A DNA stretch of 64,000 bases from Methanobacteriota archaeon. GTDB taxonomy: Archaea; Thermoplasmatota; Poseidoniia; Poseidoniales; Thalassarchaeaceae. The DNA lies in the NCBI GenBank assembly GCA_002708695.1, contig PAOZ01000019.1, positions 3,065 through 67,064 on the forward strand, read 5' to 3'. Position numbers and translations under genes: made by a program. Positions 3,992-62,292 of this stretch are shown one piece after another (position 1 is the stretch's first letter; each line of letters starts with the position of its first letter). Below the pieces are notes generated by a model, which was given only the letters and a program-made list of their open reading frames with translations, ran no database searches and was not told the DNA's origin.

Positions 3992-5029
3992 ATGCGGAGA
4001 GACTTTCAGTCAGATGAGGGGGGCCTCACCGCAGTGATTGAATTCCTTTCAGCATTCGTTCTTTTCCTAGTTATTGTCTCTGCTTTCCTCAGTCTTAGCC
4101 GTCTTAGTTTAGGTCCAAATGACCCTATGATAGATCGTTTAGATGAACACGCATCCGACGGTATAATGCGATTAACTTCAAGCCAAGGCTGGATGACACC
4201 ATATATTGATGAAAAAAGAGATGAAAATAATGGCACAGAAAATTGGCACTACGCAAATGCTAGCCAATTATTACATTCTGATGTCTTACCTGGAATAGGA
4301 AATTCAAATGGACAATTAGACCCAGAACGAATTTCTGCATTAAGTAATATTACAGAAGAACAACTGAAAAATGGTTTGGGTTTCCCGAATTTTGCTTCAA
4401 TAAACTTGTCAATAACTATACTTAACAGTCCGAATTTAGAACGTAATGGAATGACTTTATTTCTAGATGGAACTCCTCGAAAAGCAGCACAAAATTCTGC
4501 AGCAGCATTTCGCATCTTACCCATGGGGAATGAAACAATAGAAGTCAAATTAGAAGTTCATGATGCTGGGATGGTACCGGCCACAATGAAAATTACTGAA
4601 TTTGTCCCGAATCCAGAGATTGGAAAACCGGAATGGGTAGAGATACAAAACGACGGCGGGTTCGCTGTAGATTTGAACGGGTGGGGGATTTCCCGAAATG
4701 GTTTCCTTACCTTAGTTGGACAAGAAGCATTGAGAGGAGGAGGAATATTGATCTTATCTGGAGACATTGAAGAAATGGATACAGGAAACGCTAGCGTGGG
4801 CATTGATCTCGGACACACTGGAGTACTGGGAAGAGGAATGATGGACGGGCTGCACAATAATGCAGACAATCTCAAATTAACATACAATGAACCGGGTTTT
4901 TCTTTCACTCAAGAAGTAAATGTTGTCTCGTATGATTCTGATTGGGGGTTCCAAACAGGGTATAGTGCAAAATTGGATGAAAACGGATCTTGGCAAGTTT
5001 CTCAAATTACTACACCTGGCAACGTCTAA
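3992..5029 (+). CDS. pilin-like protein with class III (prepilin-type) signal peptide and C-terminal lamin-tail domain (LTD)
   Basis: N-terminus MRRDFQSDEGG|LTAVIEFLSAFVLFLVIV has basic n-region, Gly at -1 and E at +6, as in Flp/type IV prepilins. C-terminal segment EFVPNPEIGKPEWVEIQNDGGFAVDLNGWGIS matches the LTD consensus (EV..NP.....EWIEL.N.G...VDLSGW.L). Confidence 0.55.
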   Translation: MRRDFQSDEGGLTAVIEFLSAFVLFLVIVSAFLSLSRLSLGPNDPMIDRLDEHASDGIMRLTSSQGWMTPYIDEKRDENNGTENWHYANASQLLHSDVLPGIGNSNGQLDPERISALSNITEEQLKNGLGFPNFASINLSITILNSPNLERNGMTLFLDGTPRKAAQNSAAAFRILPMGNETIEVKLEVHDAGMVPATMKITEFVPNPEIGKPEWVEIQNDGGFAVDLNGWGISRNGFLTLVGQEALRGGGILILSGDIEEMDTGNASVGIDLGHTGVLGRGMMDGLHNNADNLKLTYNEPGFSFTQEVNVVSYDSDWGFQTGYSAKLDENGSWQVSQITTPGNV

Positions 5030-5066: not shown

Positions 5067-5843
5067 GTGTTCGGTCCGGTCGCCATGCTGGGCAACGCAT
5101 CATATGAGCGTGATAGGTGCGTAACAGGTATACGGGGCCTCGATGAAATCCTGAGAGGAGGGATTCCTTACGGGTCCGCTACTCTTGTCGCCGGAACATG
5201 TGGTTCTGGAAAGACTACTTTGGGAATGGAGTTTCTAATGAATGGCGCACTTGCAGGAGAAGCGTGTGCTCATTTCTCAGCTACTGAGCCTTCAGTAAAA
5301 TTGCTTGAAAATATTAGACAATACAGTTTCTTCGATATGACTACCGTAGATCGAGGATTGATCAATGTGTTTGATATGGATGTTCTTTTCTCTTGGTTGG
5401 GTTTAGATAAAAGTACATTCAATCTAGATGATATTGATGCAATGGTCAAAGCGATTACCGATATTGTAAACACTATTGGAGTCACTAGACTTGTTATCGA
5501 TTCGGTAACTTCTCTTTGTTACAAAGTCCCAAATGAGCAACTTATCAGAGATTTTCTTTTCAAGTTAGGTAAATCACTCTCTACTTTAGGTTGCACTACA
5601 CTATTGATTGCTGAAATTACATCCGTAGGAGGTAGTTCCCACCGTTCAGCATTTGGTGTTGAAGAAGCAATTGCAGATGGAATCATTGTACTTGGAGACG
5701 TTGAACGAATGGGTCATCTTCTAAGATACTTACAAGTTGTCAAGATGCGTGGTACAGACCATAGTAGAGCAAAATATGCCTTGGAACTAACTCGAAGTGG
5801 AGTGATGCTAACTCCAATGCTAAAGTGGGGTGTTAGTCAATGA
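5067..5843 (+). CDS. KaiC/RecA-superfamily ATPase, single domain, intact Walker A (FlaH/ArlH-like or KaiC-like)
   Basis: GIRGLDEILRGGIPYGSATLVAGTCGSGKTTLGMEFLMNG is KaiC-type P-loop architecture. Walker-B-like TRLVIDSVTSL. GTG start at 5067 or ATG at 5085. Confidence 0.75.
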   Translation: MFGPVAMLGNASYERDRCVTGIRGLDEILRGGIPYGSATLVAGTCGSGKTTLGMEFLMNGALAGEACAHFSATEPSVKLLENIRQYSFFDMTTVDRGLINVFDMDVLFSWLGLDKSTFNLDDIDAMVKAITDIVNTIGVTRLVIDSVTSLCYKVPNEQLIRDFLFKLGKSLSTLGCTTLLIAEITSVGGSSHRSAFGVEEAIADGIIVLGDVERMGHLLRYLQVVKMRGTDHSRAKYALELTRSGVMLTPMLKWGVSQ

Positions 5844-6424
5844 TTGAATTTGATTTAGGAATTGCTGAACAATTAACTCAAGTTACCACCACCTCTAGTG
5901 TCCAAGTTAGAGTTGGAACCAGTAATTCTGATTTGGTAATTGCATCAATTATTCAACCATTAATGCAAAATTTTGGAATGGGAGGTGTATACATAACGGC
6001 CTCTCAAACTGCACCGAACGTTATCGAAATGATGAATACAATTGGAATTGATGTCTCTCCAATTCATTTCATTGATTGCGTTTCTTCTGGCATCCTAGGT
6101 GGAACTCAAAACCCATATCCAAATATTGGCTATATCGATAGCCCAATCATGCTTGAATCAATGATGTTACGTACATTACATCATCTAGAAAACTCTCAAG
6201 TTCAGCAAAACTTTGTCATCTTAGATTCTGTAAATGCACTTTCAATATATAATGAACAAAGAATTTTAGCAGAATATCTCCATACATTCATCAACACTTG
6301 CAAAAATAGACAAGTTCTCAGTCTAATTGTTAACGTTCCTGATCAAACACCAGCAGGAGTTCTTTCCAATCTTGACTTGTATTGTAGTGATCTCATTGAT
6401 AGAGGACAAGTAGTTATTTCTTGA
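5840..6424 (+). CDS. KaiC/RecA-like domain protein lacking a P-loop (pseudo-ATPase)
   Basis: ATGA overlap with the upstream gene (translational coupling). Retains Walker-B-like FVILDSVNAL and the KaiC-like C-terminal layout, but has no GxxxxGK[ST]. Confidence 0.5.
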   Translation: MIEFDLGIAEQLTQVTTTSSVQVRVGTSNSDLVIASIIQPLMQNFGMGGVYITASQTAPNVIEMMNTIGIDVSPIHFIDCVSSGILGGTQNPYPNIGYIDSPIMLESMMLRTLHHLENSQVQQNFVILDSVNALSIYNEQRILAEYLHTFINTCKNRQVLSLIVNVPDQTPAGVLSNLDLYCSDLIDRGQVVIS

Positions 6425-6433
6425 GGGATTTGA

Positions 6434-7249
6434 ATGACAATAAATTTTGATTCCGAAGATGAAGACTTCTATGGAGAAATGGGGTCAATCGGTTCAGTTA
6501 AATTCGATAGAATCCTTACAGGGACCCCACATAATACGGGAAGCATCCCAAGGGGCTTTACCCTTCTAGGATACGGAAATACTGGCGCTGGAATTGATTT
6601 GTTCGCAAAACAGTTCGTTTCAGTTGCTGAAGACCCAGAAAATACAATTTTGATTTCAACATCAGAAACAACATCAGAAATCCTATCGGTTTACAAAAAA
6701 TATGACTGGCCCACCGAGATACGTGTTCGAACTATGGGCGAGGAATACAATAAAGAAGTCCTAACTAGAGAACTTGAAGCTTCAAGATACAGAATCGAAG
6801 GATTTACTCTTAGCGACATACAAAAGTTGGCTCAAACACGTTTCGTTGATCAACAATCTCACGATTTTCTAACTGATTTAACAACTCAAGTCACATCTCT
6901 AGGACCTTACTTCCGAGCAGCCATAGATAGTTTGGATTTCTTTTACAGTAGATTTGATCCTGGAAGAGTCACATCTATGCTAAGAATTATGCAAGCACAT
7001 GCTCAAAGAAATAGAGGTCTTCTACTATTAACAGTAAGTGGTGATGCGGTAGAGAAGAGTACCGAACGTGAATCAATGGCAATTTGCGACATGGTAATGG
7101 AATTTGAAGTAGGGATGAGAGGTTCAGATTTCGATACTAGAATGGTAATTCGAAGATTTAGAAACCATCCAGAGAATCTAGCATTTATCACATTCAGAGT
7201 CACACCCGAAGAAGCCATAACTCCAGAGACGGTCGAAAGAGTAGCATAA
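6434..7249 (+). CDS. KaiC/RecA-like domain protein with degenerate P-loop (GYGNTGAGID, no Lys)
   Basis: GSIPRGFTLLGYGNTGAGIDLFAKQFVSVAE parallels the KaiC GGxPxGsxxLxxGxxGxGKT segment with Lys lost. GAGGG SD-like motif 6 nt upstream of the ATG. Confidence 0.5.
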   Translation: MTINFDSEDEDFYGEMGSIGSVKFDRILTGTPHNTGSIPRGFTLLGYGNTGAGIDLFAKQFVSVAEDPENTILISTSETTSEILSVYKKYDWPTEIRVRTMGEEYNKEVLTRELEASRYRIEGFTLSDIQKLAQTRFVDQQSHDFLTDLTTQVTSLGPYFRAAIDSLDFFYSRFDPGRVTSMLRIMQAHAQRNRGLLLLTVSGDAVEKSTERESMAICDMVMEFEVGMRGSDFDTRMVIRRFRNHPENLAFITFRVTPEEAITPETVERVA

Positions 7250-7280: not shown

Positions 7281-7784
7281 GTGCGTACCATGAAGGCCCC
7301 GAAGGAGTCTCAAGATGCAGTGAGCCCAGTTATTGCTACTGTTCTTCTTTTGGCAATTACCGTTCTTCTAACAAGTGGTATCTACATCATGGTTCAAGAT
7401 GCAGTTCAAGCCCCCGATAAAGGGACACCATATGGACAATTAACATCTCAATCCTTGGATAATGGATTCCAAGTAGTAAGAGTCTCTGATTTATCCAATG
7501 AATTGATGATAAATACAATCAAATTCCAAATTATATCCAATAATGGCACTATTATCGAAGGTCTAGCAAATGATGCATCCGTATACGGTGCTATCGGTTC
7601 AGATATTACCTTTCAAGACAGAGATGCTGGACTTACCCTAAATCGAGGCGACTATTTCATTATCAACGCAACAGCCATTGGTTCAGATGAAGGTGATTGG
7701 ACATTCAGATTAATCTTCATGGGAACCGGAACGCGAGGAACTGCGGATCTTGGCCAAGTAATTCTTCCAGCGATTAATCAATAA
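7281..7784 (+). CDS. archaeal type IV pilin (class III signal peptide, Pilin_N-type N-terminus)
   Basis: M(R)TMKAPKESQDA|VSPVIATVLLLAITVLLTSGIYIMV. The VSPVIATVLL(L/V)AITV segment is the hallmark archaeal pilin/archaellin N-terminal motif. Small Gly/Thr/Asn-rich mature domain. GTG at 7281 or ATG at 7290. Confidence 0.7.
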   Translation: MRTMKAPKESQDAVSPVIATVLLLAITVLLTSGIYIMVQDAVQAPDKGTPYGQLTSQSLDNGFQVVRVSDLSNELMINTIKFQIISNNGTIIEGLANDASVYGAIGSDITFQDRDAGLTLNRGDYFIINATAIGSDEGDWTFRLIFMGTGTRGTADLGQVILPAINQ

Positions 7785-22197: not shown

Positions 22198-22283
22198 ATC
22201 TATCCGGAAACATAAGAAGAATATAATGGAAGTGTATAGGTACTCAATATCTCTAAGAACGTTAGAATTCAATTTCAATCCGC

Positions 22284-26967: not shown

Positions 26968-29015
26968 TCATCCACCTCCGTTAATAGCCGCGATGCAGCG
27001 GCTGTCATTCTATACCATCGAGTCCTACCTTCTTTGCGAACAGAGAGGAATCCATGTTTTCTTAAATCATTAAAAATCTGAGATAATCGTGAACGTCCAA
27101 CCTGTAATCTTGCTTGTAAAGCATCATCACTTGGAGATATATCCCTAGTTGTAGCTGCCGTTAAAACAACTACATCGGCATCTGAAACCTCTCTTAGACG
27201 ATCGGGGCGAAGAGGTGCATCTGGATCCCAACGGGGAGAACGCAATGAATTAAGTCCCCGAAGAATGTCTTCGGGCGAAGCCCTAGGAACTGATTCGGAT
27301 GAAGGGATAACAGAAGATTTCTGATTCTGAGAAGGAGGTTCGGAACCGGCTTCAACCCAAAGATCGGCTCCCTCAGAGGTTAAATCAGGAGGCCGAGAAG
27401 CCATAGGATTGGGTACTAAATTATTGGAAATCGGAGAAGAGATGTTGCTATCATCAATTGGTTCGACAAAGGCAGGAGGTTTATCTGTAGAAGAATAAGG
27501 ATCAATTATTTCAGGAGTCGGTAATGGATCAATTCCCATAATTTCGGACGTAGGGGGGTTAGGAGGGAGGTTTGCATCAATACGTGCAGTCATTTCTTTA
27601 CTCCTCGCAGATAATCCGTATATTCCTCCCCTTTTTGGAGGAGGAGGGGGTTTTACCACAATATCATTGACTGGCGATACGGAATTTGAAATTGGTAGTT
27701 CATCTTCAATAAATTCGATTAAATCCTCGGAATCAGGTAAAGATGTTATATCTGTTTCAGGATATGATGAAGACACTTCCATATCTGCTTCTCTAGATGC
27801 CTTTTCCCAAGCAGCAAAAGGCTCCAATTGCTCAGGCTCATCTTCTGTCTCAAGATATAGAGGATCTCCTTCGAAATCGTCGAATCCTCCACGTGAAGCG
27901 AAATGGACTGCTTCATCGTCCCATCCAACTTCACTATCCATACTATCGGAATCATCTAACATTAGAGAATCCACAATAGGCTCAAATTTTGAATTTGAAG
28001 CAGGCGCTGGTTCAACAATAGATTCTGTTTGAATTGTAGTTCCTTGAAGCCAAGCATCATATTCGTCCTCTACTTTATCTGTAGAAGAAGGAGAAGTTGG
28101 AGAAAATAATGGACGTGAGATTTCAGGAGCAGGGATGTGTTGAGGCGTAGCAGAAAATTCATCACGATTTGGCAATTCTGATTCATGTACTTCAGGATAA
28201 GTCGATACGTCTACTGAAAGAAATTCAGGAGGAAGTTGCCCCTCAGGATCTCGAAGATAAAGGAGATGTCGATGTAGTTGACGATTTATTGTTGATGGAT
28301 TACCTCGAGAATATGAATGAAGTTTGGTTAATTCAGTCGAATCTGTAACTATTGTCTCATTTGAGACGGTTCCCATGCGTTTATCGATAAATTGGCGGAT
28401 GTCACTCTGATTTAATGGCTCCAAATAATGAATCATGTCAAACGAGTCATGTAGAGAACGATCCCACGTGGTCATCTGGTCACTTCTTACAGCAAACACT
28501 ACCATTGCCCGCATTCTTCTTAATACAGGTATAAGTTCCTCAACTAACGACATCAATTCTTGTGATTTCGGTGATTTATAATCAAGTGCAACCAATGGAA
28601 GAGGGCCTTGAATCGAATTTAGGTGACTTGTTAACTCATTGGCTACAGCTTGAGGAGTAGGAGGAGTTTTGAAACCCCCCATCAAACCTACCAAAGCCTC
28701 ATCCAAGAATCTAGAAATGGGGTCTGATGGTGCCCAAATTGACCCTATGTGTCTCGAATCTAGAGGGGAAAGGCATTGTAATAGACTAGTTCTACCAGAA
28801 CCAGATTCTCCAACAATCAAATGGATTCCTGGTTGTCTATTCATTATATCGCTGGCAAGACAGGTGACGATTTTTTCTCTGCCAACTAGGAGATTCTTGT
28901 GTTCATGCTCAAGCGGAGACTGAGTGAAAGGGTTTCCTCGCACTAGAGGGCCACTCGGTAAGTGCTCCGCGCCTGACATCAACGGCCCATCACAATCCAA
29001 ATATAAACAATTCAC
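26964..29015 (-). CDS. Orc1/Cdc6-like or archaeal-ATPase-like P-loop protein with Walker A Lys replaced by Arg, about 350-aa acidic/Pro-rich disordered linker, and C-terminal winged HTH
   Basis: NPF..SPLEHEHKNLLVGREKIV resembles the Orc1 N-terminal box. P-loop GESGSGRTSLL has R in place of K. Linker contains PPPPKRGG and many D/E/S/P. C-terminus LSQIFNDLRKHGFLSVRKEGRTRWYRMT is wHTH-like. Confidence 0.5.
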   Translation of the reverse strand: MNCLYLDCDGPLMSGAEHLPSGPLVRGNPFTQSPLEHEHKNLLVGREKIVTCLASDIMNRQPGIHLIVGESGSGRTSLLQCLSPLDSRHIGSIWAPSDPISRFLDEALVGLMGGFKTPPTPQAVANELTSHLNSIQGPLPLVALDYKSPKSQELMSLVEELIPVLRRMRAMVVFAVRSDQMTTWDRSLHDSFDMIHYLEPLNQSDIRQFIDKRMGTVSNETIVTDSTELTKLHSYSRGNPSTINRQLHRHLLYLRDPEGQLPPEFLSVDVSTYPEVHESELPNRDEFSATPQHIPAPEISRPLFSPTSPSSTDKVEDEYDAWLQGTTIQTESIVEPAPASNSKFEPIVDSLMLDDSDSMDSEVGWDDEAVHFASRGGFDDFEGDPLYLETEDEPEQLEPFAAWEKASREADMEVSSSYPETDITSLPDSEDLIEFIEDELPISNSVSPVNDIVVKPPPPPKRGGIYGLSARSKEMTARIDANLPPNPPTSEIMGIDPLPTPEIIDPYSSTDKPPAFVEPIDDSNISSPISNNLVPNPMASRPPDLTSEGADLWVEAGSEPPSQNQKSSVIPSSESVPRASPEDILRGLNSLRSPRWDPDAPLRPDRLREVSDADVVVLTAATTRDISPSDDALQARLQVGRSRLSQIFNDLRKHGFLSVRKEGRTRWYRMTAAASRLLTEVDE

Positions 29016-39612: not shown

Positions 39613-42111
39613 TTAATCACCCAAACTACATTCAATACTAGGATAACACATTGCTGCAAGGTGTATTTCGAGGCCAATTGAAGAGGATTCGAACCAAATT
39701 GCGGTAAATCCACCAGTAACATTAGCCCGTGTAGAGTCAAAAGAATACGAACTATTTGCTCCTATTTCAGATGGGAAAGAAATATTCCAAATCGAATCCA
39801 AAGAAATAGAAGAATGAATTACAGGAATTAGAGATACTGATTCAGAACCCACATTTGAAAGATTAATTGATTGATCATTTATATTTGAATCTAAAATCAA
39901 CATTTTCCCATTGACTAAAATCGACGGACCGCTAACCATCTCATAATTTGACCTAAACGATTGCTCACACACTGTCAAGATTCCAAAATTAGGAATAATT
40001 AGTCTAGCATTCGTAATATTTTCAGAAACATGAATAATTTGAGAATTGTTATTGTTCTCATCAAATGTTTGATTCCCATTTTGTGATAACTCTGTAGTAA
40101 CAAATTCAGGACAAGAACTTGATTCATTAACATGCCATCCAATACTTCGAGCATCAATTGGATATGATGAATCAAATTCAAATCCATCTGCTAAGGCAAC
40201 TGCCGACCGATTCACATCCATCAATCTAGCAGTCAAGGAATACGAAGAACCATCGTCCGATTGATACGTTATTGTAGGACCATTTATGCCTCCATCCGAT
40301 GATAAATCAGCCATTTGAATCGCTCCTTCCATAGGCTCAACACATACCAATTCAGGTGATTCAATTGTAATGTTCATTGGATCATTCACAGAATGGGTTT
40401 CTCCTCCCACAATGCTCCACAGAGGGTTATTCAAAGTAATATTCGCAGGCAACGATTCCAAACCTACAACCATCTCAATACAATGATTCTCGTCCTGATA
40501 AAACCAACCATCATTCAAAATACGTACAGAACCACCAACTTTCACAGTCGTTTGATGTTCAAATGTAGTACCCGTAGTAGTGCTATGTAAATGTAAATTC
40601 AATTTTACTACTCCAGTAATTGAATCAGAAGGAGGTTTTAATTTAATCAATAATTTACCAGGAGTACGCTGAGAAATATTCGAATAATTACAATCTAATC
40701 CTGAAAAATCATCTTCACCAGGGCACTTAATTTCGATAATCCAACCCTCAATTACCCCTGAAGGAGAAACATGTATACTTCCTGAACTATCTAAGACTCC
40801 TTTCGGAATAAGTGGATATTCCAATGTCGAATTATTTTCAAATAAAATTTCATAATTATCAATCCAATCTTCTATGTCTAAATCCTGATTCCAGTCATCA
40901 ATTGAATAATTCACATCATAAGTCGGTAACGAAAGAATTAGCATTACTATTCCTATAGGGAGAACCCATGAGGGCATGGAGGTGTTGGCTGCATCTGTAT
41001 CATTGATAACAAGAGGAATGGGGATTGCATCGCTTTGGAAACGACGCCAAATAGCCAAACTTCCTATCGCAATCCATATCCAGAATTGGCCTTGGAAATT
41101 TACCAAAAGTGCAACTACTACTGTGAATAGAAGGAGTTGAGCTTGTTCTGATGTTTCAGTTCCCCACTTTGCAGCGCCGCGAATTGCAGTATACAGATGA
41201 TCACCAGGGAAATTAGGAATCGGGAGCAATAGAATAAATCCAACAACTGTCATACCATGTCCTGCCAATAGCATAGGAGAAGCCCATTGAACTCTGAAAA
41301 ATATTGATTCTCCAATTAACAAAGTACCCATCAATTCTGTAAACCAATTCAAATCCAAAACAAAGGGAATCTCTTCAATTGGAAGAGGATTAGTAGGTGT
41401 GAGGTGCAAACCTATCAATGCAAATCCTATTCCAGAAACAATCAATGTGAATGGTAAAACCAAAGATACCAGAGCTAAACTGATACGATTGGGGAACTGA
41501 ATCTCATCAATACGCCTGAGTTGAAGAATTCCAATCAATCCAAAAGGCCAAATCGGACTTAATCCAGTTATGGGAAATGGAATACTAATCGGCAACAGAT
41601 GGTCTACTTTGACTCCATGTGATTTTGCAACCATCCTCCTAACAACACTTGCTAAAGCAATGGTTGACATTATGGGCAACGCATACTGGATTCCTCCAAT
41701 TTGGAATGCCTCAATAGAACTAGAATCGATAGACGAATTTACTCTTCCAATCCAACCTGCACCAATTATTGTCAGAAATACAAAAGAAAGTAACCACAAA
41801 AAGATCTGTGTACTCCTTTGAATTACAGCACTTCTTACACGAATTGGAGATATTTCTAGAATATATGGTTCATCATCCTCAAGATTAGGAACCCAACCCA
41901 AAGGAGTTAATTTGGAACGTAAGTCGTCCAAACAAGAATCTACGTCATCATCTAATGCATCTACCATCCATGCATAGCCATACTGTGCTTCATTTATTTC
42001 CGAAATCACAACAAAATGTTCAGCAGTTAATTCCTCTAGGAAATCACGTTGAGTCCAAGCCTTTCTTTCCAAGCGGAGTGCTGGCACATCTGGTTCGCTC
42101 AACACTTCCAC
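39613..42111 (-). CDS. polytopic membrane protein: about 100-aa cytoplasmic N-domain, about 8 TM helices, and about 430-aa extracellular C-terminal domain rich in N-glycosylation sequons
   Basis: Hydrophobicity pattern read from the translation. Many NxS/T in the C-terminal half. No HExxH, WWDYG or other catalytic signature found. Confidence 0.4.
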   Translation of the reverse strand: MEVLSEPDVPALRLERKAWTQRDFLEELTAEHFVVISEINEAQYGYAWMVDALDDDVDSCLDDLRSKLTPLGWVPNLEDDEPYILEISPIRVRSAVIQRSTQIFLWLLSFVFLTIIGAGWIGRVNSSIDSSSIEAFQIGGIQYALPIMSTIALASVVRRMVAKSHGVKVDHLLPISIPFPITGLSPIWPFGLIGILQLRRIDEIQFPNRISLALVSLVLPFTLIVSGIGFALIGLHLTPTNPLPIEEIPFVLDLNWFTELMGTLLIGESIFFRVQWASPMLLAGHGMTVVGFILLLPIPNFPGDHLYTAIRGAAKWGTETSEQAQLLLFTVVVALLVNFQGQFWIWIAIGSLAIWRRFQSDAIPIPLVINDTDAANTSMPSWVLPIGIVMLILSLPTYDVNYSIDDWNQDLDIEDWIDNYEILFENNSTLEYPLIPKGVLDSSGSIHVSPSGVIEGWIIEIKCPGEDDFSGLDCNYSNISQRTPGKLLIKLKPPSDSITGVVKLNLHLHSTTTGTTFEHQTTVKVGGSVRILNDGWFYQDENHCIEMVVGLESLPANITLNNPLWSIVGGETHSVNDPMNITIESPELVCVEPMEGAIQMADLSSDGGINGPTITYQSDDGSSYSLTARLMDVNRSAVALADGFEFDSSYPIDARSIGWHVNESSSCPEFVTTELSQNGNQTFDENNNNSQIIHVSENITNARLIIPNFGILTVCEQSFRSNYEMVSGPSILVNGKMLILDSNINDQSINLSNVGSESVSLIPVIHSSISLDSIWNISFPSEIGANSSYSFDSTRANVTGGFTAIWFESSSIGLEIHLAAMCYPSIECSLGD

Positions 42112-56623: not shown

Positions 56624-57862
56624 TTAGTTAACTGTAGAGTGATACGTCTGTATTATTCTAGTAACTGATTCAATATCTCTAATGTCTCGGTTGACCAAAT
56701 CTGTCAAAATCTGTTCTTTTTGTCTAACTACTGCTTCAAAATCAGCAGGAGTACATCCTTTCGCAGTACAGATGATTTCTCTAACCTTGCTTGGAACTCC
56801 AGTTTCAACAATTTTTCCTTGACTTGCATCATACTTCCAAATTGGATTCAGGCGAGGAGTATCTCCTTCCATTCCTGCAATTTCAGCAACTTCAGTAATT
56901 CTTCTAATATTCTTCCCTCCAACATTAAGACGTGCTTGCATTATAATCAAATCTAGCGCATTCAGCATTATTGCAGGGACACTCATTGGAGGATTCACGA
57001 GTCTCTTAACGGTCTCATTGGCCGTATTTGCGTGAAGACTTCCAAATGAACCATCATGACCAGTATTCATCGCCATTAACATAGTTGCAGCTTCTGGGCC
57101 ACGAACTTCACCAACAATTACTCTATCAGGACGCATTCTAAGACTGGATTTCAAACAGTCATTCATGTCAATTTCAGATGTGCCGTCTGGACGTCTATCC
57201 CTAGTTTCCATTCTTAGCCAATGATCATGATAAATCTGGAGTTCAGCAGTGTCTTCTACCGATAAAACACGGTCAGACCATGGAACAAACATTCCGAGGC
57301 AATTGAGCGTTGTTGTTTTACCAGAACCTGTTCCTCCCGCTATAACGAAATTTGCTGGCTTTGCACCTAATCCGTCTACCCATGTCCAAAACATAGCGGC
57401 TAAACGAGGTGATACTGTGCCCCACTTTATCAAATCAACAATTGTAATTGGATCCTCTCTAAATTTCCTAATGGTTAGAGTAGGACCATCAGGAGAAACA
57501 GGAGGGATTGTCCCATTCACACGAGAACCATCTGGAAGACGGCCGTCGAAAATAGGCACCATACCTGGTCCATCTCCAAGAGGAACTTCGGTATGTGATG
57601 CGATATTTTTTGCAATCTGAATTCCTTCTTCATCTTCTACCCAAATATTTGTTCTACACATACCATGCTTCCTATGGGCAATCTTCACACATTGTTTTCC
57701 ACCGTTATACATCACTTCCTCAAGATCATCGTCGTCCAACAAAACTTGGAGAACCCCATAGGGATTAGCAGCAATTTGTCCATTGTATTCATAGAAAGGA
57801 GTAGGATGACCCTCTTCACTGTAAACAATTACATCGCCATATTGATCAATAATTTCTGCCAT
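56624..57862 (-). CDS. type II/IV secretion system ATPase, CpaF/TadA/VirB11-like (FlaI/PilB superfamily)
   Basis: Walker A IAGGTGSGKTTTL. Walker B and Asp box RVIVGEVRGPEA. His box NTGHDGSFGSLHANTA. TIRKF segment. 412 aa, shorter than typical FlaI. Confidence 0.85.
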   Translation of the reverse strand: MAEIIDQYGDVIVYSEEGHPTPFYEYNGQIAANPYGVLQVLLDDDDLEEVMYNGGKQCVKIAHRKHGMCRTNIWVEDEEGIQIAKNIASHTEVPLGDGPGMVPIFDGRLPDGSRVNGTIPPVSPDGPTLTIRKFREDPITIVDLIKWGTVSPRLAAMFWTWVDGLGAKPANFVIAGGTGSGKTTTLNCLGMFVPWSDRVLSVEDTAELQIYHDHWLRMETRDRRPDGTSEIDMNDCLKSSLRMRPDRVIVGEVRGPEAATMLMAMNTGHDGSFGSLHANTANETVKRLVNPPMSVPAIMLNALDLIIMQARLNVGGKNIRRITEVAEIAGMEGDTPRLNPIWKYDASQGKIVETGVPSKVREIICTAKGCTPADFEAVVRQKEQILTDLVNRDIRDIESVTRIIQTYHSTVN

Positions 57863-57871
57863 TTTTATCCC

Positions 57872-58612
57872 TCAGAACATGTTCCCTGCCATGATGTATA
57901 CACCCTGAAACAATAGAGTGGACATCAACATCCAAGCCGGAGCAGACCAGAGATATTGACCAGTCCGACCAAGCATTCGACCACTAATTGCAACAGTTAC
58001 TCCTGTTGCTGCGGCAGAGAAAAGGTAGAGGGCTTCTAAGGTTGAAGCCAAAGGATATCCAGTTGATGGAGGTGCAAAAATCCCTACAATAAATCCAGTG
58101 ATACAAGGAAGCATAAGACCCATCAAAACTATCATTGTAAATGCTTGACCAAAGACCTTTTCTTCCTTTAACCGCATTAGAGAATTCAACTTCTCGTATT
58201 CTATACTCATCCTGTATGTTACTTCCTGTAATGGTGCCTGTTGTTCAAGAGCAGCATCCAAAAGATTGACTACTCTTTGAACCAAAGCACTTCTAGATTC
58301 AAGAGCAAATTTTGCTAATGCAGCAGTAAATGATGTTGCTTGAGCCCTAACCAAAGCTTGATCCAATAAAGTTCCAGCAACATCGTTACGAGACTTCGCC
58401 ACATCAGCAAAAGCTTGTTCAAGACCCAAACCGGCTCCCAACTCGGCTGAAATTAATTCCATCATCTCAGGTAAAGCACCATCAATACTGCTTCTTCTTC
58501 GGGATTCTAATGCCAAAGGAATCGCTCCTCCAATCCCAATTATTGCCAAAGGAAGTAAGAACATAGCAGTAGGGTTGTCATTTAGACGTTCCATTAATTG
58601 CCAAAGCATCAA
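57872..58612 (-). CDS. T2SSF-domain membrane protein (TadC/FlaJ half-size)
   Basis: Helical T2SSF-like repeat and 3-4 TM helices. 246 aa. 6 nt downstream of the preceding membrane-protein gene. Confidence 0.6.
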   Translation of the reverse strand: MMLWQLMERLNDNPTAMFLLPLAIIGIGGAIPLALESRRRSSIDGALPEMMELISAELGAGLGLEQAFADVAKSRNDVAGTLLDQALVRAQATSFTAALAKFALESRSALVQRVVNLLDAALEQQAPLQEVTYRMSIEYEKLNSLMRLKEEKVFGQAFTMIVLMGLMLPCITGFIVGIFAPPSTGYPLASTLEALYLFSAAATGVTVAISGRMLGRTGQYLWSAPAWMLMSTLLFQGVYIMAGNMF

Positions 58613-58618
58613 ATCACC

Positions 58619-59191
58619 TCAGACTCCAGGATCCCTAGTATGGGCCTTTAGACCAATCATCCCCATTGCAAATACACAAAATGCAAGACCGCCGAATGTT
58701 GCCATTCGCGCCACACCTGGACCAGGGACATCGATTAACCCTGACGCTCCTGCAAAAAGATATGGCGCTACTGCCATCAATGGCAAAACAATTGGACCAA
58801 GCATTCCTACAGTCAACAAGGCTGTAGGCATTCCCTCAAGGGCTTCGATGTACTTCATTATACGATCTGTGCGCTCTTCTTCTTCCCTATCTGCTTGACG
58901 TCGTAAATCTGAAATCAAATCAGTATTCGATGTCACATTGGTTTTTAGTGTCGTAAGGAGACGTTTGTAACCTGTGGATTTTGTACGAGAAGTGGCCTTA
59001 GTAAGTTCATCTTCAATCCTTCTTCCGGCTCGAACACCATCCATAATCTTCTCCATATCTTTACTGATAGCACCATATCCACCTCTAGCGATATTAATCA
59101 ATACAGATTCAAGACCAACTCCAGCTCCTAAAAGAACATCAAACGCTCGTAGAGCGGCTAACAAATCTCGTTCTTCGGCTTCCATAATCAC
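58619..59191 (-). CDS. T2SSF-domain membrane protein (TadB/FlaJ half-size)
   Basis: Cytoplasmic helical domain (LLAALRAFDVLLGAGVGLESVL) followed by TM helices. 190 aa. ATGA overlap with the upstream 114-aa gene. Confidence 0.55.
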   Translation of the reverse strand: MIMEAEERDLLAALRAFDVLLGAGVGLESVLINIARGGYGAISKDMEKIMDGVRAGRRIEDELTKATSRTKSTGYKRLLTTLKTNVTSNTDLISDLRRQADREEEERTDRIMKYIEALEGMPTALLTVGMLGPIVLPLMAVAPYLFAGASGLIDVPGPGVARMATFGGLAFCVFAMGMIGLKAHTRDPGV

Positions 59192-59532
59192 GCCTCCGCA
59201 TCTTCAACCAAAACCAACTCAATCTCTCCCGATTCTGAATCATAAGTCATTTCTTGAATTGCTACAAGCATCTCTCTATCAATAAACGGATCAATGAACG
59301 AAGGTTGGCCTGCGCGGAATAATCCTTCCAAAACCTTGTATCCTCTAGTATCCACTTTTAGTCGAATGGTATATACTGCAGATTCCGAACCTTCATCCTT
59401 TACATCATCTCCTTCGCCACCGCGAACTAATTTACGTTCAAGACGCCTTTTTATGTTCACAGAAACGTGACATTCCTCTAATTGCATCCATTCTCCATCC
59501 TTTGCGCGAATGAAGCAAGAGATGCCTGACAT
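59188..59532 (-). CDS. hypothetical protein (114 aa), translationally coupled to the T2SSF genes
   Basis: ORF with acidic C-terminus. No recognisable motif. Confidence 0.35.
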   Translation of the reverse strand: MSGISCFIRAKDGEWMQLEECHVSVNIKRRLERKLVRGGEGDDVKDEGSESAVYTIRLKVDTRGYKVLEGLFRAGQPSFIDPFIDREMLVAIQEMTYDSESGEIELVLVEDAEA

Positions 59533-59591
59533 GTCTGTCCCTACCCCTCCACTGGAGACTTGGGGGCATCAAGGTATCGCATTATCGAGAG

Positions 59592-60539
59592 TTATAAAAT
59601 CTCAAAGAAACCGAATTCTGGTTCTTGAATCAACGCTTGAACATCTCGAAGATCGTCGATGACCTCCTCGGCTGTTAACCGTACTACACCAACACTAGCA
59701 CAAGCACGGATGAGCGTATCATAATCAACTGGATCATCAGATGCATTCAAACATTGCAAAATTGCCTCTTTCGCTTTATCTATTGCTTCATCTCCCTCTA
59801 AATTCTCAACTGTTTTTGGAGAAACAGATTCATCAGGAACAGGAGATGTTTCAACAACTTCATCGGGTGGAGCAAGCCCTTCACTCATACTAATTGCACG
59901 CATGACCGCCACTTCGTAAACTGAATCATCGATATCACCATAATGTTCTCTTGACTTCAGGAGACCAGAAATAAGATCTGAAGGAATTCCTCCCGATTTG
60001 TAACTTATCTCCGTATTTTCTAATTCACGTGATTTTCTCTGAGCATCTATTCTTCTCATTGTTGCATCTGCAGTACGGGCCAACCAAACATGGTAGCGAG
60101 TTACGTCAATTTCCCTAAAACCTTCAGCACGAATACTAGTAAACACGCCACCATCTTCTGTTTCATAATGTCTTGAACGTCCCAACATCAATACTAGGAA
60201 ACGATCGCCTCTCTCAAATCTAGCAAGTATCTCTTCCGCATCAGCATGTAATTCAGGAGTAAATGGGGTAACATCAAACATATGTAAACCAGTAGAATCT
60301 CTCAAACGTCCACGATATCCCGGTCCACTTTCTGTATCTCTTCTTTCCATATTATCGATTACACCTGCTACCAACATCCTAGAAGTCATAGCACCAAGAC
60401 GACTAACAACAAATGAGGGGTCAAATTCGCCCTGTCCAACAATTGGTAGCGAAGATTGAGAAAACTCAATTGCAAACATCCTAAGAGCAGGTTGCCTCTG
60501 CCGACTAGATGAATTTGAAATCACAAAACCACCCCCCAT
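59592..60539 (-). CDS. hypothetical protein (315 aa) immediately downstream of rpa (possible RPA-associated protein)
   Basis: Overlaps the rpa stop by 19 nt (or starts at internal Met 60479). Assignment by synteny only. Confidence 0.35.
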   Translation of the reverse strand: MGGGFVISNSSSRQRQPALRMFAIEFSQSSLPIVGQGEFDPSFVVSRLGAMTSRMLVAGVIDNMERRDTESGPGYRGRLRDSTGLHMFDVTPFTPELHADAEEILARFERGDRFLVLMLGRSRHYETEDGGVFTSIRAEGFREIDVTRYHVWLARTADATMRRIDAQRKSRELENTEISYKSGGIPSDLISGLLKSREHYGDIDDSVYEVAVMRAISMSEGLAPPDEVVETSPVPDESVSPKTVENLEGDEAIDKAKEAILQCLNASDDPVDYDTLIRACASVGVVRLTAEEVIDDLRDVQALIQEPEFGFFEIL

Positions 60540-62212
60540 GTCTCACGTACTTTAGCAGCTATCGCAACTGGATCATCCAATTTCTCAACAACAGAATCAG
60601 GAAGTAGCATAATTCCTCTATCATCTACAATGGCTCTTCCATTAATCAAAATTCTAGTTCCAAACAATTTTTCACTTATCTCTCTAACAAAATTCCCAGG
60701 GCCTTCTTCATTGATTCTACTTTGAATTGAGGCCATATCTTGATGCAGAAATTTCTCAGATGCTGCGCGTCCTACAACTACATTTGCACTAGCTAGTCCA
60801 TCATCAATGACAAAACGAAGTCGAAGATCTTCCACTCCCTCAACTACATCGTGTTCTGCACAAACCCCTTCTCTCAAAACACGACGACATTCTGGACAAC
60901 GTAAAACAATTCCACAATCATCTCGAACAACCAAAACCTCTCCTTCAGTTTGGATTCCATCTCTAGAACCACTATTCTTGAGTTCTCCAAGAGTTGTCTC
61001 AACTACATGTGATTCAGGGTCTATTTCTCCCCATGGGGATTGATCCAAAATTGTTACTTGTTTTGCATCATCTACTGTAATATCAGGAGTTCCTTGGAAG
61101 GCTCGAATTCGTGCTTCTTGAATAGAAACCACTTGACCTGGTTGAATTTCTATCGGAGACCATACAGTCATCTTACAACGTCCGGAAGGATCTAAAACGC
61201 GAACACTCGTAAGACTACGTTCCTCACCATCTCTCACAAAAGTTCGAGTTTCTATTGATTCAACTTGAACAGTGATATCAACTCCCCTCATACCATCTCG
61301 AATATCCTCGATTTTTGCACGATTATTTGATGATAATTCATCAGCATCAGGGAATGATGCGTCTCGAAATACCTCAATTTTTGTTCTATCACTAAAATTG
61401 ACTTCAGGTGTTTCTCGGAATCTCCTGATATTCGCGCCTTCAAAACGAAGTAGTGAACCAACTTCATGATTGAATTCACCCCAACAAAGGAAACTCATCT
61501 GACCTGAACTATCTGCTAATCGTCCTCGAACAACGTCGATGGTACCGCTACCATCTTTCTTTACAATCTGATCCGGACGAGCAGCAATCACCCTTGCTAC
61601 CAATGTAACAGGACCTTCCATTGATGCAGCAGTAGCCAAATCAACTGGTTCAGATGTAGGTATATTGACTGTATTTCCTTCCTGAAGAACTGCTACACGT
61701 GAACTCTGATTGATGTTTATTGAACGTTTACCATTCCACTCATTCACTGATACTCCTTCTAATCTAACTATTGAACCCGGAGATAAATTCGAACTATGAT
61801 TCCCCCAATCCTTGTAATCCCAGCGAGTACTCCCTTCATTTGAGAAAGGAAGGTCTTCTATCCATCCAAAGGCAATTTGCCGTTCCTCACCTCGAACCAT
61901 TTGTACTCTAGGAGTGTAACTCACTACCATGACCTCGATTGTTACATTACGATCATCAGAGCCTAATTCAGAGAATCTTTCTACTTTCTTCGAAGCTACC
62001 ATACTATCCATTCTAGATTGAATTGAAGTTTCAGAATCATTCTTCTGAAATCGCTTCACAATCGAACGTACTGCATCCTCAGGTTCAATCCTAAACTGTG
62101 TGTGATATTTTTCAAATTCTTCACGAATTGCATTCCTATCAGCATCAGGAACCTCGGTTAGAACCTGCTCAATGTATGTCTCATATTCATCTGTCATTTT
62201 TTCAGTCTCCAC
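60521..62212 (-). CDS. rpa: replication protein A (single-stranded DNA-binding protein with multiple OB folds and a zinc ribbon)
   Basis: Repeated OB-fold segments (e.g. IRRFRETPEVNFSDRTKIEV). CxxC...CxxH zinc motif CPECRRVLREGVCAEH. 563 aa. Confidence 0.75.
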   Translation of the reverse strand: METEKMTDEYETYIEQVLTEVPDADRNAIREEFEKYHTQFRIEPEDAVRSIVKRFQKNDSETSIQSRMDSMVASKKVERFSELGSDDRNVTIEVMVVSYTPRVQMVRGEERQIAFGWIEDLPFSNEGSTRWDYKDWGNHSSNLSPGSIVRLEGVSVNEWNGKRSININQSSRVAVLQEGNTVNIPTSEPVDLATAASMEGPVTLVARVIAARPDQIVKKDGSGTIDVVRGRLADSSGQMSFLCWGEFNHEVGSLLRFEGANIRRFRETPEVNFSDRTKIEVFRDASFPDADELSSNNRAKIEDIRDGMRGVDITVQVESIETRTFVRDGEERSLTSVRVLDPSGRCKMTVWSPIEIQPGQVVSIQEARIRAFQGTPDITVDDAKQVTILDQSPWGEIDPESHVVETTLGELKNSGSRDGIQTEGEVLVVRDDCGIVLRCPECRRVLREGVCAEHDVVEGVEDLRLRFVIDDGLASANVVVGRAASEKFLHQDMASIQSRINEEGPGNFVREISEKLFGTRILINGRAIVDDRGIMLLPDSVVEKLDDPVAIAAKVRETWGVVL

Positions 62213-62292
62213 TGGAGGGGGGTAAAATCACGCTCCAGCAAACACCGAGTCACTCCAATATTAGGAGAAAGGAGAGATGACTCGGCGTAAGG

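What the first reader, a model, noticed from the sequence alone, without database searches (positions are those of the whole stretch)
56624..59532. Tad-like secretion/pilus module with split platform protein and ATPase last
Gene order on the minus strand is a 114-aa hypothetical, a 190-aa T2SSF-like protein, a 246-aa T2SSF-like protein, then a 412-aa CpaF/TadA-like ATPase. In archaellum (flaHIJ), archaeal pilus (pilBC, aapEF) and bacterial tad loci the ATPase precedes the membrane protein. Archaeal FlaJ/PilC is normally one polypeptide of about 500-600 aa with two T2SSF repeats. Here the platform is split TadB/TadC-style and the ATPase is bacterial CpaF-sized. This could be the missing motor for the pilin/KaiC operon at 4-7.8 kb.
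Basis: partly seen in the sequence, partly recalled or inferred. Interest (0 to 1): 0.55.

Follow-up and report, generated by a model that had tools for sequence, protein, structure and literature searches.

The report
Compact split-platform archaeal pilus motor
This is a real, conserved three-gene core of a type IV pilus assembly machine (two half-size membrane platform proteins plus a short ATPase) in Marine Group II archaea. It is a compact relative of the archaeal Epd and bacterial Tad pilus motors, not a broken archaellum, and it is preceded by a small protein predicted to fold like a phage tail tube.

Summary
The four minus-strand ORFs exist as described. The window comes from a Marine Group II archaeon (Ca. 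Poseidoniales, Thalassarchaeaceae). The 190-aa and 246-aa proteins each carry one T2SSF domain. The 412-aa protein is an intact PilB/VirB11-family ATPase.

The split is ancient, not a frameshift. It is kept in every MGII locus examined and in a 53%-identity Poseidoniia sister group. The reading-frame relation between the two genes varies among loci.

The ATPase is not FlaI (256 bits against a cut-off of 550). It carries CpaF-type motifs. Its nearest named relatives are Hydrothermarchaeota and Methanobacteriales (47-50% identity), then bacterial CpaF. Deep branching is unresolved.

Split platforms are already documented for archaeal Epd/System 1, some clade 2, and subsystems 4A and 4B. The kind is therefore known. 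The particular features here are the platform-platform-ATPase order, the small platform proteins and the ATPase that lacks the usual N-terminal ~100-145 residues. The same layout recurs in three unrelated archaeal contigs.

The likely substrate is a PilA-type pilin. It lies 5-6 kb downstream in most MGII genomes and was moved next to the KaiC operon in this lineage by rearrangement.

The 114-aa protein is MGII-specific and is predicted to have a tail-tube-like fold. It could belong to the pilus module or to the adjacent RPA genes.

The parts
56624..57862 (-). 412-aa PilB/VirB11-family assembly ATPase. It is CpaF/Epd-type with a short N-terminus and archaeal C-terminal helices.
   Evidence: Pfam T2SSE 1e-40. 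PDB phmmer: CpaF 232.6 bits, afGspE 230.7, FlaI 169. NCBIfam FlaI 256 bits against a 550 cut-off, matching model positions 147-518 only. Walker A GGTGSGKTT and AMNTGHDG are shared with CpaF. Catalytic columns are invariant in A5 and A6. Identity across Poseidoniales is 70-98%.
57872..58612 (-). 246-aa platform protein, C-terminal-half type. It has one T2SSF domain flanked by TM segments. The probable start is the ATG at 58609.
   Evidence: Pfam T2SSF 2e-5. NCBIfam ArlJ match to model positions 298-378 of 465. TM segments. Orthologues share 27-38% identity in MGII and the sister group. hhalign probability 98.5% to bacterial TadB/TadC profiles.
58619..59191 (-). 190-aa platform protein, N-terminal-half type. 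It has one cytoplasmic T2SSF domain followed by two TM segments. The probable start is the ATG at 59185, after GGAGG.
   Evidence: Pfam T2SSF 2e-12. TM segments. Orthologues. BLASTP to Methanobacteriaceae, Methanobrevibacter and Hydrothermarchaeota platform proteins, 5e-16 to 6e-10. hhalign to TadC 71.5 and TadB 58.5.
59188..59532 (-). 114-aa acidic soluble protein. It is MGII-specific and is predicted to have a phage tail-tube-like beta-sandwich fold. It is either a candidate accessory of the module or an RPA-associated protein.
   Evidence: No Pfam, NCBIfam or PDB sequence hit. Only 13 homologue clusters, all MGII. AF2 pLDDT 84, pTM 0.73. The listed top 50 Foldseek hits in PDB are phage tail, tail-tube-fold or contractile-injection-system proteins, apart from two chains of one unrelated complex. 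The named BFVD hits are nearly all tail proteins. It always sits between the RPA32-like gene and the platform gene.
7281..7784 (+). Candidate substrate: a PilA-type archaeal type IV pilin with a class III signal peptide (KESQDA|VSPVIATVLLLAITV). The probable start is at 7290.
   Evidence: Pfam Pilin_N 3.7e-6. NCBIfam arch_flag_Nterm 8e-8. It is the only clean class III candidate in the window. A Pilin_N gene of similar size (164-172 aa) lies 5-6 kb downstream of the ATPase in L001-3, L014 and L018.
3992..5029 (+). Candidate partner: a 345-aa protein with a pilin-like N-terminus (DEGG|LTAVIEF plus a hydrophobic helix) and a lamin-tail domain. It is the first gene of the KaiC-like operon.
   Evidence: Pfam LTD 5e-6. 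N-terminus and TM segment. It is conserved ahead of the KaiC-like trio in Poseidoniaceae.
5067..7249 (+). Candidate regulators: three single-domain KaiC/FlaH-like proteins (258, 194 and 271 aa). Only the first has a Walker A motif.
   Evidence: Pfam KaiC 1.8e-52, 1e-5 and 1.8e-7. Weak ArlH/FlaH matches. Walker A check. The 271-aa protein is conserved across Poseidoniales. A KaiC/DUF7125 gene lies beside a related short-N ATPase in L097.

Best explanation
The 190-aa, 246-aa and 412-aa genes encode the inner-membrane core of a type IV filament assembly machine.

Shown here:
- The ATPase is an intact PilB/VirB11-family enzyme.
- Each platform protein carries one T2SSF domain plus TM segments.
- The split and the gene order are conserved under purifying selection across MGII and a Poseidoniia sister group.
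- The module is not the archaellum.

Inferred from homologues (Tad CpaF/CpaG/CpaH; Epd EpdL/EpdJ/EpdK):
- The two half-platform proteins form a heterodimer that stands in for the usual two-repeat PilC/FlaJ protein.
- The ATPase forms a hexamer beneath this platform. It uses ATP to lift pilins, already cut by a signal peptidase III, out of the membrane and into a growing pilus.

Inferred from context: the filament is built from the conserved PilA-type pilin and serves adhesion to particles or cells. I put this step at about 0.6. The prepilin peptidase is encoded elsewhere.

The KaiC/FlaH-like trio, the LTD pilin-like protein and the 1090-aa surface protein may be trans-encoded accessories (about 0.35).

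The 114-aa protein with a tail-tube-like fold is either the first gene of the pilus operon (about 0.35) or works with the upstream RPA pair (about 0.35).
For: - Domains and motifs.
- Tight packing with SD-like sites.
- The platN-platC-ATPase triad is conserved in every MGII locus examined: L001-3, L008-9, L014-15, L017-18, L101-103, L105-109 and L111-116, with partial triads on truncated contigs. It is also conserved in the 53% sister group, L004-7. Frame relations vary among loci.
- The same compact layout appears in L098-L100. The halves are collinear with ours for both genes in L100 and for the first gene in L098; L099 is weak.
- Nearest named relatives are Hydrothermarchaeota and Methanobacteriales at 47-50% identity, then bacterial CpaF at 37-43%.
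- hhalign gives 95-98.5% probability against TadB and TadC profiles.
- A pilin gene lies 5-6 kb downstream in several MGII lineages.
- Literature: both EpdJ and EpdK are needed for piliation (PMC4371748). TadB/TadC and Epd arose by fission of the platform gene (PMC6668835). ATPase/TadC modules often work with stand-alone pilins (PMC4858521).
Against: - No pilin, prepilin peptidase or other accessory gene lies inside the operon.
- No prepilin peptidase was found among the window ORFs scanned.
- The ATPase lacks the N-terminal ~100-145 residues present in FlaI, afGspE and CpaF, so partner contacts may differ.
- ATPase phylogeny is unresolved. NJ bootstrap support is below 30% for every node above the Poseidoniia clade.
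- No expression or filament data exist for these uncultured organisms.
- One-to-one orthology of the halves to TadC and TadB is not resolved.
Confidence: 0.8

Rival explanations
1. It is a degraded archaellum or pilus core. On this view the two membrane ORFs are a single flaJ/pilC broken by a nonsense or frameshift mutation, and the ATPase is a truncated FlaI.
For: In this window the two ORFs are in the same frame, separated only by TGA plus two codons. JGI annotates orthologues as 'flagellar protein FlaI'. The best NCBIfam hit is the FlaI model.
Against: The split is present in every locus examined across MGII and the sister group, with different frame relations and an SD-like site before the second gene. 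The proteins stay 27-45% identical with conserved lengths. The FlaI score is 256 bits against a 550 cut-off. No archaellin or flaF/G/H genes are nearby. MGII archaellum operons are a separate FlaAGHIJ-plus-flagellin locus (PMC6336850).
Confidence: 0.03
2. The whole six-gene block (RPA41-like, RPA32-like, 114 aa, two platform genes, ATPase) is one functional unit for DNA uptake. A pilus machine would bring in DNA, and the co-encoded single-strand-binding proteins would coat it.
For: The block is co-directional and strictly syntenic in all MGII loci examined. The 563-aa and 315-aa proteins resemble P. abyssi Rpa1 and Rpa2. Epd-type pili are required for natural transformation in Methanococcus, and an OB-fold protein was a hit in that screen (PMC10133366). 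An 11-mer, CTCCAGTGGAG, occurs only upstream of the RPA and 114-aa starts in this window.
Against: The RPA is probably the housekeeping replication protein. In the sister group and in L098-L100 the triad occurs without RPA. The 11-mer is not conserved even in the 95%-identity relative. Streamlined genomes pack unrelated genes tightly.
Confidence: 0.08
3. The 114-aa protein is not part of the pilus module. It is the third, Rpa3/RPA14-like subunit of the upstream RPA.
For: It follows an RPA41-like gene and an RPA32-like gene. Its size matches Rpa3. Archaeal RPA is heterotrimeric and encoded by adjacent genes (PMC10122647). It is absent wherever the triad lacks RPA. The order of secondary-structure elements (three strands, a helix, then strands) is compatible with an OB fold.
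Against: The AF2 model has no C-terminal trimerisation helix, which Rpa3 needs (PMC10122647). No OB-fold protein appears in the listed top 50 of either fold search, which are dominated by phage tail and tail-tube-fold proteins. There is no sequence match to any PDB chain. Its stop overlaps or lies within 34 nt of the platform gene, whereas 30-68 nt separate it from the RPA32-like gene.
Confidence: 0.35
4. The module builds no long filament. It would act instead as a short pseudopilus or bindosome-like device for surface display or secretion of class III signal-peptide proteins, such as the LTD protein.
For: It is minimal and has no dedicated pilin in the operon. The archaeal bindosome and the widespread class III signal-peptide binding proteins set a precedent (bioRxiv 10.64898/2026.04.22.720090). 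An LTD protein with a pilin-like N-terminus is conserved in Poseidoniales.
Against: The NCBIfam BasE score is low (131 bits). A canonical PilA-type pilin is conserved next to the module in most MGII.
Confidence: 0.07

Closest known systems
Archaeal Epd pilus core / TFF 'System 1' (Makarova clade 1): EpdL ATPase with EpdJ and EpdK platform proteins of Methanococcus maripaludis
   Same: One PilB-type ATPase sits beside two separate platform genes, each with a single T2SSF domain. The named sequences nearest to the ATPase come from taxa that carry clade 1 systems: Methanobacteriales at 47-49% and Methanocaldococcus at 45%.
   Different: The ATPase is ~60-130 residues shorter at the N-terminus. 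The platform proteins are 190 and 246 aa, against ~290-390 aa. The ATPase is last rather than first, compared with the Methanobacteriales and Hydrothermarchaeota loci. No EppA, short Epd pilins or adjacent FlaH-like gene was seen. The only pilin found is PilA-type. Clade membership is not resolved by my trees.
Bacterial Tad/Flp pilus motor: CpaF(TadA)-CpaG(TadB)-CpaH(TadC)
   Same: CpaF is the best-scoring solved structure by sequence (232.6 bits, 33-36% identity). It shares the GGTGSGKTT and AMNTGHDG motifs. Both systems split the platform into two single-T2SSF proteins.
   Different: The gene order is reversed. There is no TadZ, secretin, Flp pilin or TadV nearby. The ATPase keeps the archaeal C-terminal helical region, which aligns with afGspE to residue 408. 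TIGR03819 scores below its cut-off.
Archaellum core FlaH-FlaI-FlaJ (ArlHIJ)
   Same: It uses the same ATPase and platform superfamilies. FlaI is the best NCBIfam model hit and a top structural match.
   Different: The score is less than half the FlaI cut-off. The first 146 model positions are missing. FlaJ is a single polypeptide. There are no archaellins and no FlaF/G/H here. MGII archaella are encoded at a separate locus (PMC6336850, PMC6461757).
Compact short-N ATPase modules in uncultured archaea (L098, L099, L100; representative ATPases P0213, P0170, P0139)
   Same: They have the same three-gene layout and sizes (~180 aa, ~230 aa, ~390-404 aa). They share the ATPase N-terminal xxYGxVxI motif. 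The platform genes are collinear with ours for both genes in L100 and for the first gene in L098; the L099 matches are weak.
   Different: ATPase identity is only 42-45%. The NJ tree does not group them with the Poseidoniia clade. Their taxonomy is unknown. They have no 114-aa gene and no RPA neighbours.

Membership tests
Type IV filament (TFF) assembly core | PilB/VirB11-family hexameric ATPase with intact Walker A, Walker B, Asp-box and His-box residues | tested here: met
   T2SSE 1e-40. Matches to CpaF, afGspE and FlaI. Invariant G176-T184, E203, D204, E207, R242-R247, E252, H269 and H277.
Type IV filament (TFF) assembly core | Polytopic platform protein(s) with T2SSF domain(s) encoded beside the ATPase | tested here: met
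   T2SSF in both neighbours. TM segments. hhalign probability 95-98.5% to TadB/TadC.
Type IV filament (TFF) assembly core | Class III signal-peptide pilin and a signal peptidase III in the genome | tested here: inconclusive
   A pilin is present at 7281-7784 and lies close to the module in other MGII. No peptidase A24 was found among the window ORFs scanned. The rest of the genome was not available.
Archaellum (ArlH/I/J) | ATPase reaches the FlaI equivalog score and has the FlaI N-terminal region | tested here: not met
   NF058587 scores 255.6 bits against a 550 cut-off and matches model positions 147-518 only.
Archaellum (ArlH/I/J) | Single FlaJ polypeptide, with archaellins and FlaF/FlaG/FlaH in the locus | tested here: not met
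   There are two separate platform genes. The neighbours are RPA genes and a SAP-domain protein.
Epd-like / System 1 (Makarova clade 1) | Two adjacent platform genes, each with one T2SSF domain, next to the ATPase | tested here: met
   The definition comes from PMC6668835 and bioRxiv 10.64898/2026.04.22.720090.
Epd-like / System 1 (Makarova clade 1) | ATPase branches within clade 1 | tested here: inconclusive
   The nearest named relatives come from clade 1 taxa. In the NJ trees, support is below 30% for all nodes above the Poseidoniia clade. No arCOG reference set or ML tool was available.
Epd-like / System 1 (Makarova clade 1) | Short (~70 aa) Epd-type pilins without a globular domain, and an EppA-type peptidase | tested here: not met
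   Within the window only a PilA-type pilin with a globular part (164-167 aa) was found. No EppA-like gene is in the window. The rest of the genome could not be tested.
Bacterial Tad/Flp pilus | tadZ-tadA-tadB-tadC order with a secretin (RcpA), Flp pilin and TadV | tested here: not met
   The order is platform-platform-ATPase. None of the other components lies within 10 kb. The organism is an archaeon without an outer membrane.
Bacterial Tad/Flp pilus | TadA-family ATPase model score | tested here: not met
   TIGR03819 scores 210.5 bits against a 373 cut-off.
RPA heterotrimer, small subunit (for the 114-aa protein) | OB fold followed by a C-terminal helix that forms the three-helix trimerisation bundle | tested here: not met
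   The AF2 model ends in a strand and has no C-terminal helix. The listed Foldseek top hits are phage tail and tail-tube-fold proteins, with no OB-fold protein among them. The criterion comes from PMC10122647. The test rests on a model built from nine sequences.
Phage tail tube / Hcp-like fold (for the 114-aa protein) | Beta-sandwich with a long beta-hairpin and a flanking helix, able to form hexameric rings | tested here: inconclusive
   Fold similarity is consistent: E ~1e-4, TM 0.6-0.69, and the listed top hits are tail-tube-fold or related tail proteins. Oligomeric state and homology could not be tested, and sequence identity is 8-16%.

The most novel reading that the evidence does not exclude
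The MGII-specific 114-aa protein is a cellular, phage-tail-tube-like ring protein recruited as a new cytoplasmic component of a minimal archaeal type IV pilus motor. It might stand in for the missing ATPase N-terminal region or for a FlaH/TadZ-type partner. A related version: the conserved RPA-114aa-pilus block is a DNA-uptake apparatus in the ocean's most abundant planktonic archaea.
Probability: 0.12. Interest if true: 0.7.

Novelty: new member of a known kind. Interest (0 to 1): 0.4.

Why it matters
Marine Group II archaea are among the most abundant heterotrophs in surface oceans and remain uncultured. Published genome surveys discuss only an archaellum operon, found in MGIIa and a few MGIIb clades, as their attachment or motility device (PMC6461757, PMC6336850).

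This module is a second filament machine. It was present in every MGII locus I examined, from both families, and in a Poseidoniia sister group. It may therefore be the general adhesion or uptake pilus of these organisms, including clades said to lack 'flagella'.

It also adds a very compact, ATPase-last variant to the Epd/Tad-like split-platform lineage. That lineage bears on how the bacterial Tad pilus arose from archaeal systems. The kind of machine itself is well known.

Tried and rejected
- **Frameshifted single flaJ:** rejected. The split is conserved with varying frame relations.
- **FlaI identity:** rejected on the NCBIfam cut-off.
- **ATPase phylogeny:** NJ trees with 100 bootstraps on 107 and 126 sequences resolved only the Poseidoniia, Methanobacteriales and bacterial CpaF clades. 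Deeper nodes had less than 30% support. No ML program was available.
- **Naming representative sequences:** cluster look-ups gave few names. The taxonomy of L098-L100 remains unknown.
- **One-to-one orthology of the halves with TadC/TadB by hhalign:** platN slightly favours TadC (71.5 against 58.5). platC does not discriminate (108.7 against 108.0).
- **Context test for the 114-aa protein:** all 16 metagenome loci show the same RPA-114-platform order, so context cannot assign it.
- **Shared 11-mer upstream of the RPA and 114-aa genes:** significant within the window but not conserved in relatives. I treat it as unproven.
- **Sigma-70 promoter and intrinsic terminator scan:** no more sites than in the shuffles, and the scan is not suited to archaea.
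- **PDB sequence searches with both platform proteins:** nothing useful.
- **MGII metatranscriptome paper (PMC9723583):** no mention of pilus genes.
- **ATPase AF2 model:** only moderate quality (pLDDT 68), so I used the fold search only coarsely.


Full report
**1. Observation**

The four minus-strand ORFs are present exactly as listed.
- Pfam finds one T2SSF domain in the 190-aa protein (E = 2e-12).
- It finds one in the 246-aa protein (E = 2e-5, 24.8 bits against a 25.2-bit cut-off).
- It finds T2SSE in the 412-aa protein (E = 1e-40).
- The 114-aa protein matches nothing in Pfam or NCBIfam.

The genes are packed like an operon.
- The 114-aa stop overlaps the listed start of the 190-aa ORF. 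A GGAGG lies 7 nt before the ATG at 59185.
- The two platform genes are separated by TGA-GGTGAT-TTG-ATG.
- The ATPase ATG follows 9 nt after the 246-aa stop.

**2. Organism and context**

The closest homologues of the ATPase are named Candidatus Thalassarchaeaceae, Poseidoniales and Poseidoniaceae. Identity is 95-98% for the nearest and 70-75% across the order. The window is therefore a chromosomal stretch of a Marine Group II (MGIIb) archaeon.

The rest of the window is housekeeping: an A-type ATP synthase operon, SMC/ScpB, MutS/MutL, Cdc6, ribosomal proteins and isoprenoid genes.

Upstream, on the same strand, lie two RPA genes.
- A 563-aa RPA: NCBIfam PRK07218, 289 bits. Its C-terminal half matches P. 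abyssi Rpa1.
- A 315-aa protein that aligns end to end with P. abyssi RPA32 (E = 0.007).

**3. The split is real and old**

The order RPA, RPA32-like, ~114-126 aa, ~190 aa T2SSF, ~244 aa T2SSF, ~412 aa ATPase, then a convergent SAP-domain gene, is found wherever the contig extends far enough. This holds for all MGII loci fetched: L001-3, L008-9, L014-18 and 16 of 16 metagenome loci.

A sister group with 53% identical ATPases is named Candidatus Poseidoniia. It keeps only the triad T2SSF(187-189) - T2SSF(261-266) - ATPase(414-417), in a different neighbourhood.

The two platform genes are in the same frame in the window, L014, L017 and L107. They are in different frames in L001, L008, L018, L101 and L105. 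They overlap by 4 nt in L005, L098 and L099. So they are independent genes, not a read-through or a recent nonsense allele.

Protein identity between MGII families is as follows:

| Protein | Identity |
|---|---|
| platN (190 aa) | 41-46% |
| platC (246 aa) | 37-40% |
| 114-aa protein | 38-44% |
| ATPase | 70-74% |

**4. The ATPase**

Against solved structures it scores 232.6 bits with Caulobacter CpaF and 230.7 with Archaeoglobus afGspE. The afGspE alignment runs to residue 408, so it includes the archaeal C-terminal helices. It scores 169 with Sulfolobus FlaI and 85 or less with VirB11.

The NCBIfam FlaI model gives 256 bits against a cut-off of 550 and matches only model positions 147-518. 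TadA (TIGR03819) is also below its cut-off.

The protein lacks about 100-145 N-terminal residues found in FlaI, afGspE and CpaF.

Its Walker A (GGTGSGKTT) and AMNTGHDG motifs match CpaF and Methanocaldococcus. FlaI and afGspE have GETASGKTT and AM(S/Q)TGH instead. Catalytic residues are invariant.

A moderate AF2 model (pLDDT 68) matches afGspE, FlaI and CpaF in that order by E-value. Sequence identity is highest to CpaF, at 33-36%.

**5. Relatives**

An exhaustive profile search found 25,156 relatives.

- Hydrothermarchaeota, 50% identity.
- Methanobrevibacter, Methanobacterium and Methanobacteriaceae, 47-49%.
- Bacterial CpaF, 37-43%.

A Methanocaldococcus 'CpaF family protein' is 45% identical. 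These archaea are the taxa that carry Makarova's clade 1, also called System 1 or the Epd pilus (PMC4858521; bioRxiv 10.64898/2026.04.22.720090).

My NJ trees put the Poseidoniia clade (98-100% support) in a loose group with these archaea and bacterial CpaF, apart from FlaI and afGspE. Every deeper node has under 30% support. The Epd/Tad-like affinity is therefore consistent but not proven.

**6. Gene order and size**

In the Methanobacteriales, Hydrothermarchaeota and Caulobacter loci, the ATPase (474-544 aa) comes first. Single-T2SSF platform genes of 284-392 aa follow it.

The same compact layout does occur elsewhere. Three unrelated uncultured archaeal contigs carry it:

| Contig | First gene | Second gene | ATPase |
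|---|---|---|---|
| L098 | 178 aa | 230 aa | 404 aa |
| L099 | 184 aa | 226 aa | 390 aa |
| L100 | 181 aa | 237 aa | 394 aa |

Their ATPases share the short N-terminus and its xxYGxVxI motif. The platform genes are collinear with ours for both genes in L100 and for the first gene in L098. The L099 matches are weak and do not discriminate.

Profile-profile comparison confirms that both halves are homologous to TadB and TadC (probability 95-98.5%). It does not settle which half matches which.

**7. What is already known**

- Denise et al. (PMC6668835) showed that Epd-like pili and Tad both have two platform genes with one T2SSF domain each. They explained this by gene fission.
- Makarova et al. 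(PMC4858521) report two tadC-like genes in clade 1, many clade 2 loci, and 4A and 4B. They note that ATPase/TadC modules evolve independently of pilin sets, and that KaiC-family ATPases associate with archaeal pilus loci.
- EpdJ and EpdK are both essential for piliation (PMC4371748).
- The MGII literature describes only a separate FlaAGHIJ-plus-flagellin operon in MGIIa and some MGIIb (PMC6461757, PMC6336850).
- I found no description of this module in the held papers.

**8. Partners**

The only clean class III signal-peptide protein in the window is the 164-167-aa PilA-type pilin at 7281-7784. Its cleavage context, QDA|VSPVI, resembles the Haloferax PilA sites listed in PMC4371748.

In other MGII lineages a Pilin_N gene of similar size (164-172 aa) lies 5-6 kb downstream of the ATPase, after the polyprenyl synthase and geranylgeranyl reductase genes (L001-3, L014, L018). 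In the window's own lineage that position is taken by a UbiE methyltransferase and the A-type ATPase operon.

The KaiC-like operon consists of an LTD protein with a pilin-like N-terminus, a KaiC with a Walker A motif, and two KaiC/FlaH-like proteins without one. It is conserved across Poseidoniales. In Poseidoniaceae it is followed by the UbiE methyltransferase and A-type ATPase operon, not by the pilin.

So the 'pilin/KaiC operon' of this window is a product of rearrangement. The link between the motor and the KaiC genes rests on two things. One is the general association reported by Makarova. The other is a single contig (L097) in which a KaiC/DUF7125 gene and a platform-N-like gene lie beside a related short-N ATPase.

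**9. The 114-aa protein**

It is restricted to MGII: 13 homologue clusters at 43-100% identity. It has an invariant acidic loop, RGGEGDD..DEG.ESAVYT.

AF2 gives pLDDT 84 and pTM 0.73 from a nine-sequence alignment. The loop sits at the tip of a long beta-hairpin.

Foldseek returns phage tail and tail-tube-fold proteins for nearly all of the listed top 50 PDB hits (monocin, diffocin, 80alpha, GTA, HFTV1). The exceptions are two chains of one unrelated complex (DSR2-SPR). The named BFVD hits are likewise nearly all tail proteins. E-values are about 1e-4 and TM-scores 0.6-0.69.

By position it could be the Rpa3-like third subunit of the upstream RPA. However, the model lacks the C-terminal trimerisation helix that defines Rpa3 (PMC10122647). 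No OB-fold protein appears among the listed top hits.

It is also consistently closer to the platform gene (-4 to +34 nt) than to the RPA32-like gene (30-68 nt). Context cannot decide, because the block never varies within MGII. I leave this open, at roughly even odds.

**10. Verdict**

- The core interpretation is supported: a Tad/Epd-like pilus motor with a true split platform, and not FlaI.
- The claim that this architecture is exceptional for archaea is not supported. The kind is documented.
- What is specific here is a compact, ATPase-last, short-N variant. It was present in every MGII locus and sister-group locus I examined, and it carries an MGII-specific gene with a tail-tube-like fold at its head.
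- I file it as a new member of a known kind, of moderate interest.

Noticed in passing
window 59188-59532 (-): The 114-aa hypothetical protein is predicted (AF2 pLDDT 84) to adopt a phage tail-tube-like beta-sandwich. An invariant acidic loop sits at the tip of a long hairpin. Tail-tube-fold and related tail proteins dominate the listed Foldseek hits in both PDB and BFVD. It is found only in MGII, always between the RPA32-like gene and the first platform gene.
   Followed up: partly
window 59592-62212 (-): The 563-aa RPA and the overlapping 315-aa gene resemble P. abyssi Rpa1 and Rpa2 (RPA32, end-to-end alignment, E = 0.007). MGII therefore seems to have a eukaryote-like multi-subunit RPA whose genes are fixed directly upstream of the pilus module.
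   Followed up: partly
window 59547-59557 and 62207-62217: The near-palindromic 11-mer CTCCAGTGGAG occurs only twice in 64 kb. One copy lies 15 nt upstream of the 114-aa start codon and the other 10 nt upstream of the RPA start codon. No shuffle reached this count. It is absent from the same positions in a 95%-identity relative and in other MGII loci.
   Followed up: yes
window 3992-7784 versus L001, L010-L014, L018: The LTD-KaiC-KaiC-like-KaiC-like operon is conserved across Poseidoniales. In Poseidoniaceae a UbiE methyltransferase and the A-type ATPase operon follow it. The pilin and EPSP synthase pair normally follows the geranylgeranyl reductase near the pilus ATPase. The window's lineage has rearranged these junctions, and this created the apparent 'pilin/KaiC operon'.
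   Followed up: partly
window 583-3855 (-): A 1090-aa protein with a signal peptide, a C-terminal membrane anchor and no Pfam match is transcribed divergently from the LTD/KaiC operon. It is conserved in that position in Poseidoniaceae (939-992 aa). It may be a surface or adhesin protein of the same system.
   Followed up: partly
proteins P0121-P0124, P0128, P0130 (relatives); L020 26-3592: Some relatives of the ATPase are tandem fusions of two or three complete ATPase copies in one polypeptide (851-1605 aa). Others look interrupted by intein-like insertions. The Hydrothermarchaeota ATPase ORF is 1188 aa.
   Followed up: partly
L021-L025 (Methanobacteriales loci): A TctA-family membrane protein gene lies just upstream of the pilus ATPase in all five Methanobacteriales loci (Pfam-confirmed in L022 only). 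A TctA-like protein was reported as essential for natural transformation in Methanococcus (PMC10133366).
   Followed up: no
window 10703-15387 (-): Bacterial-type MutL and MutS mismatch-repair genes sit together in this archaeal chromosome.
   Followed up: no
window 26964-29015 (-), 39613-42111 (-), 20695-22407 (-): Several large ORFs have little or no family assignment: a 683-aa STAND-like NTPase, an 832-aa ORF and a 570-aa ORF.
   Followed up: no
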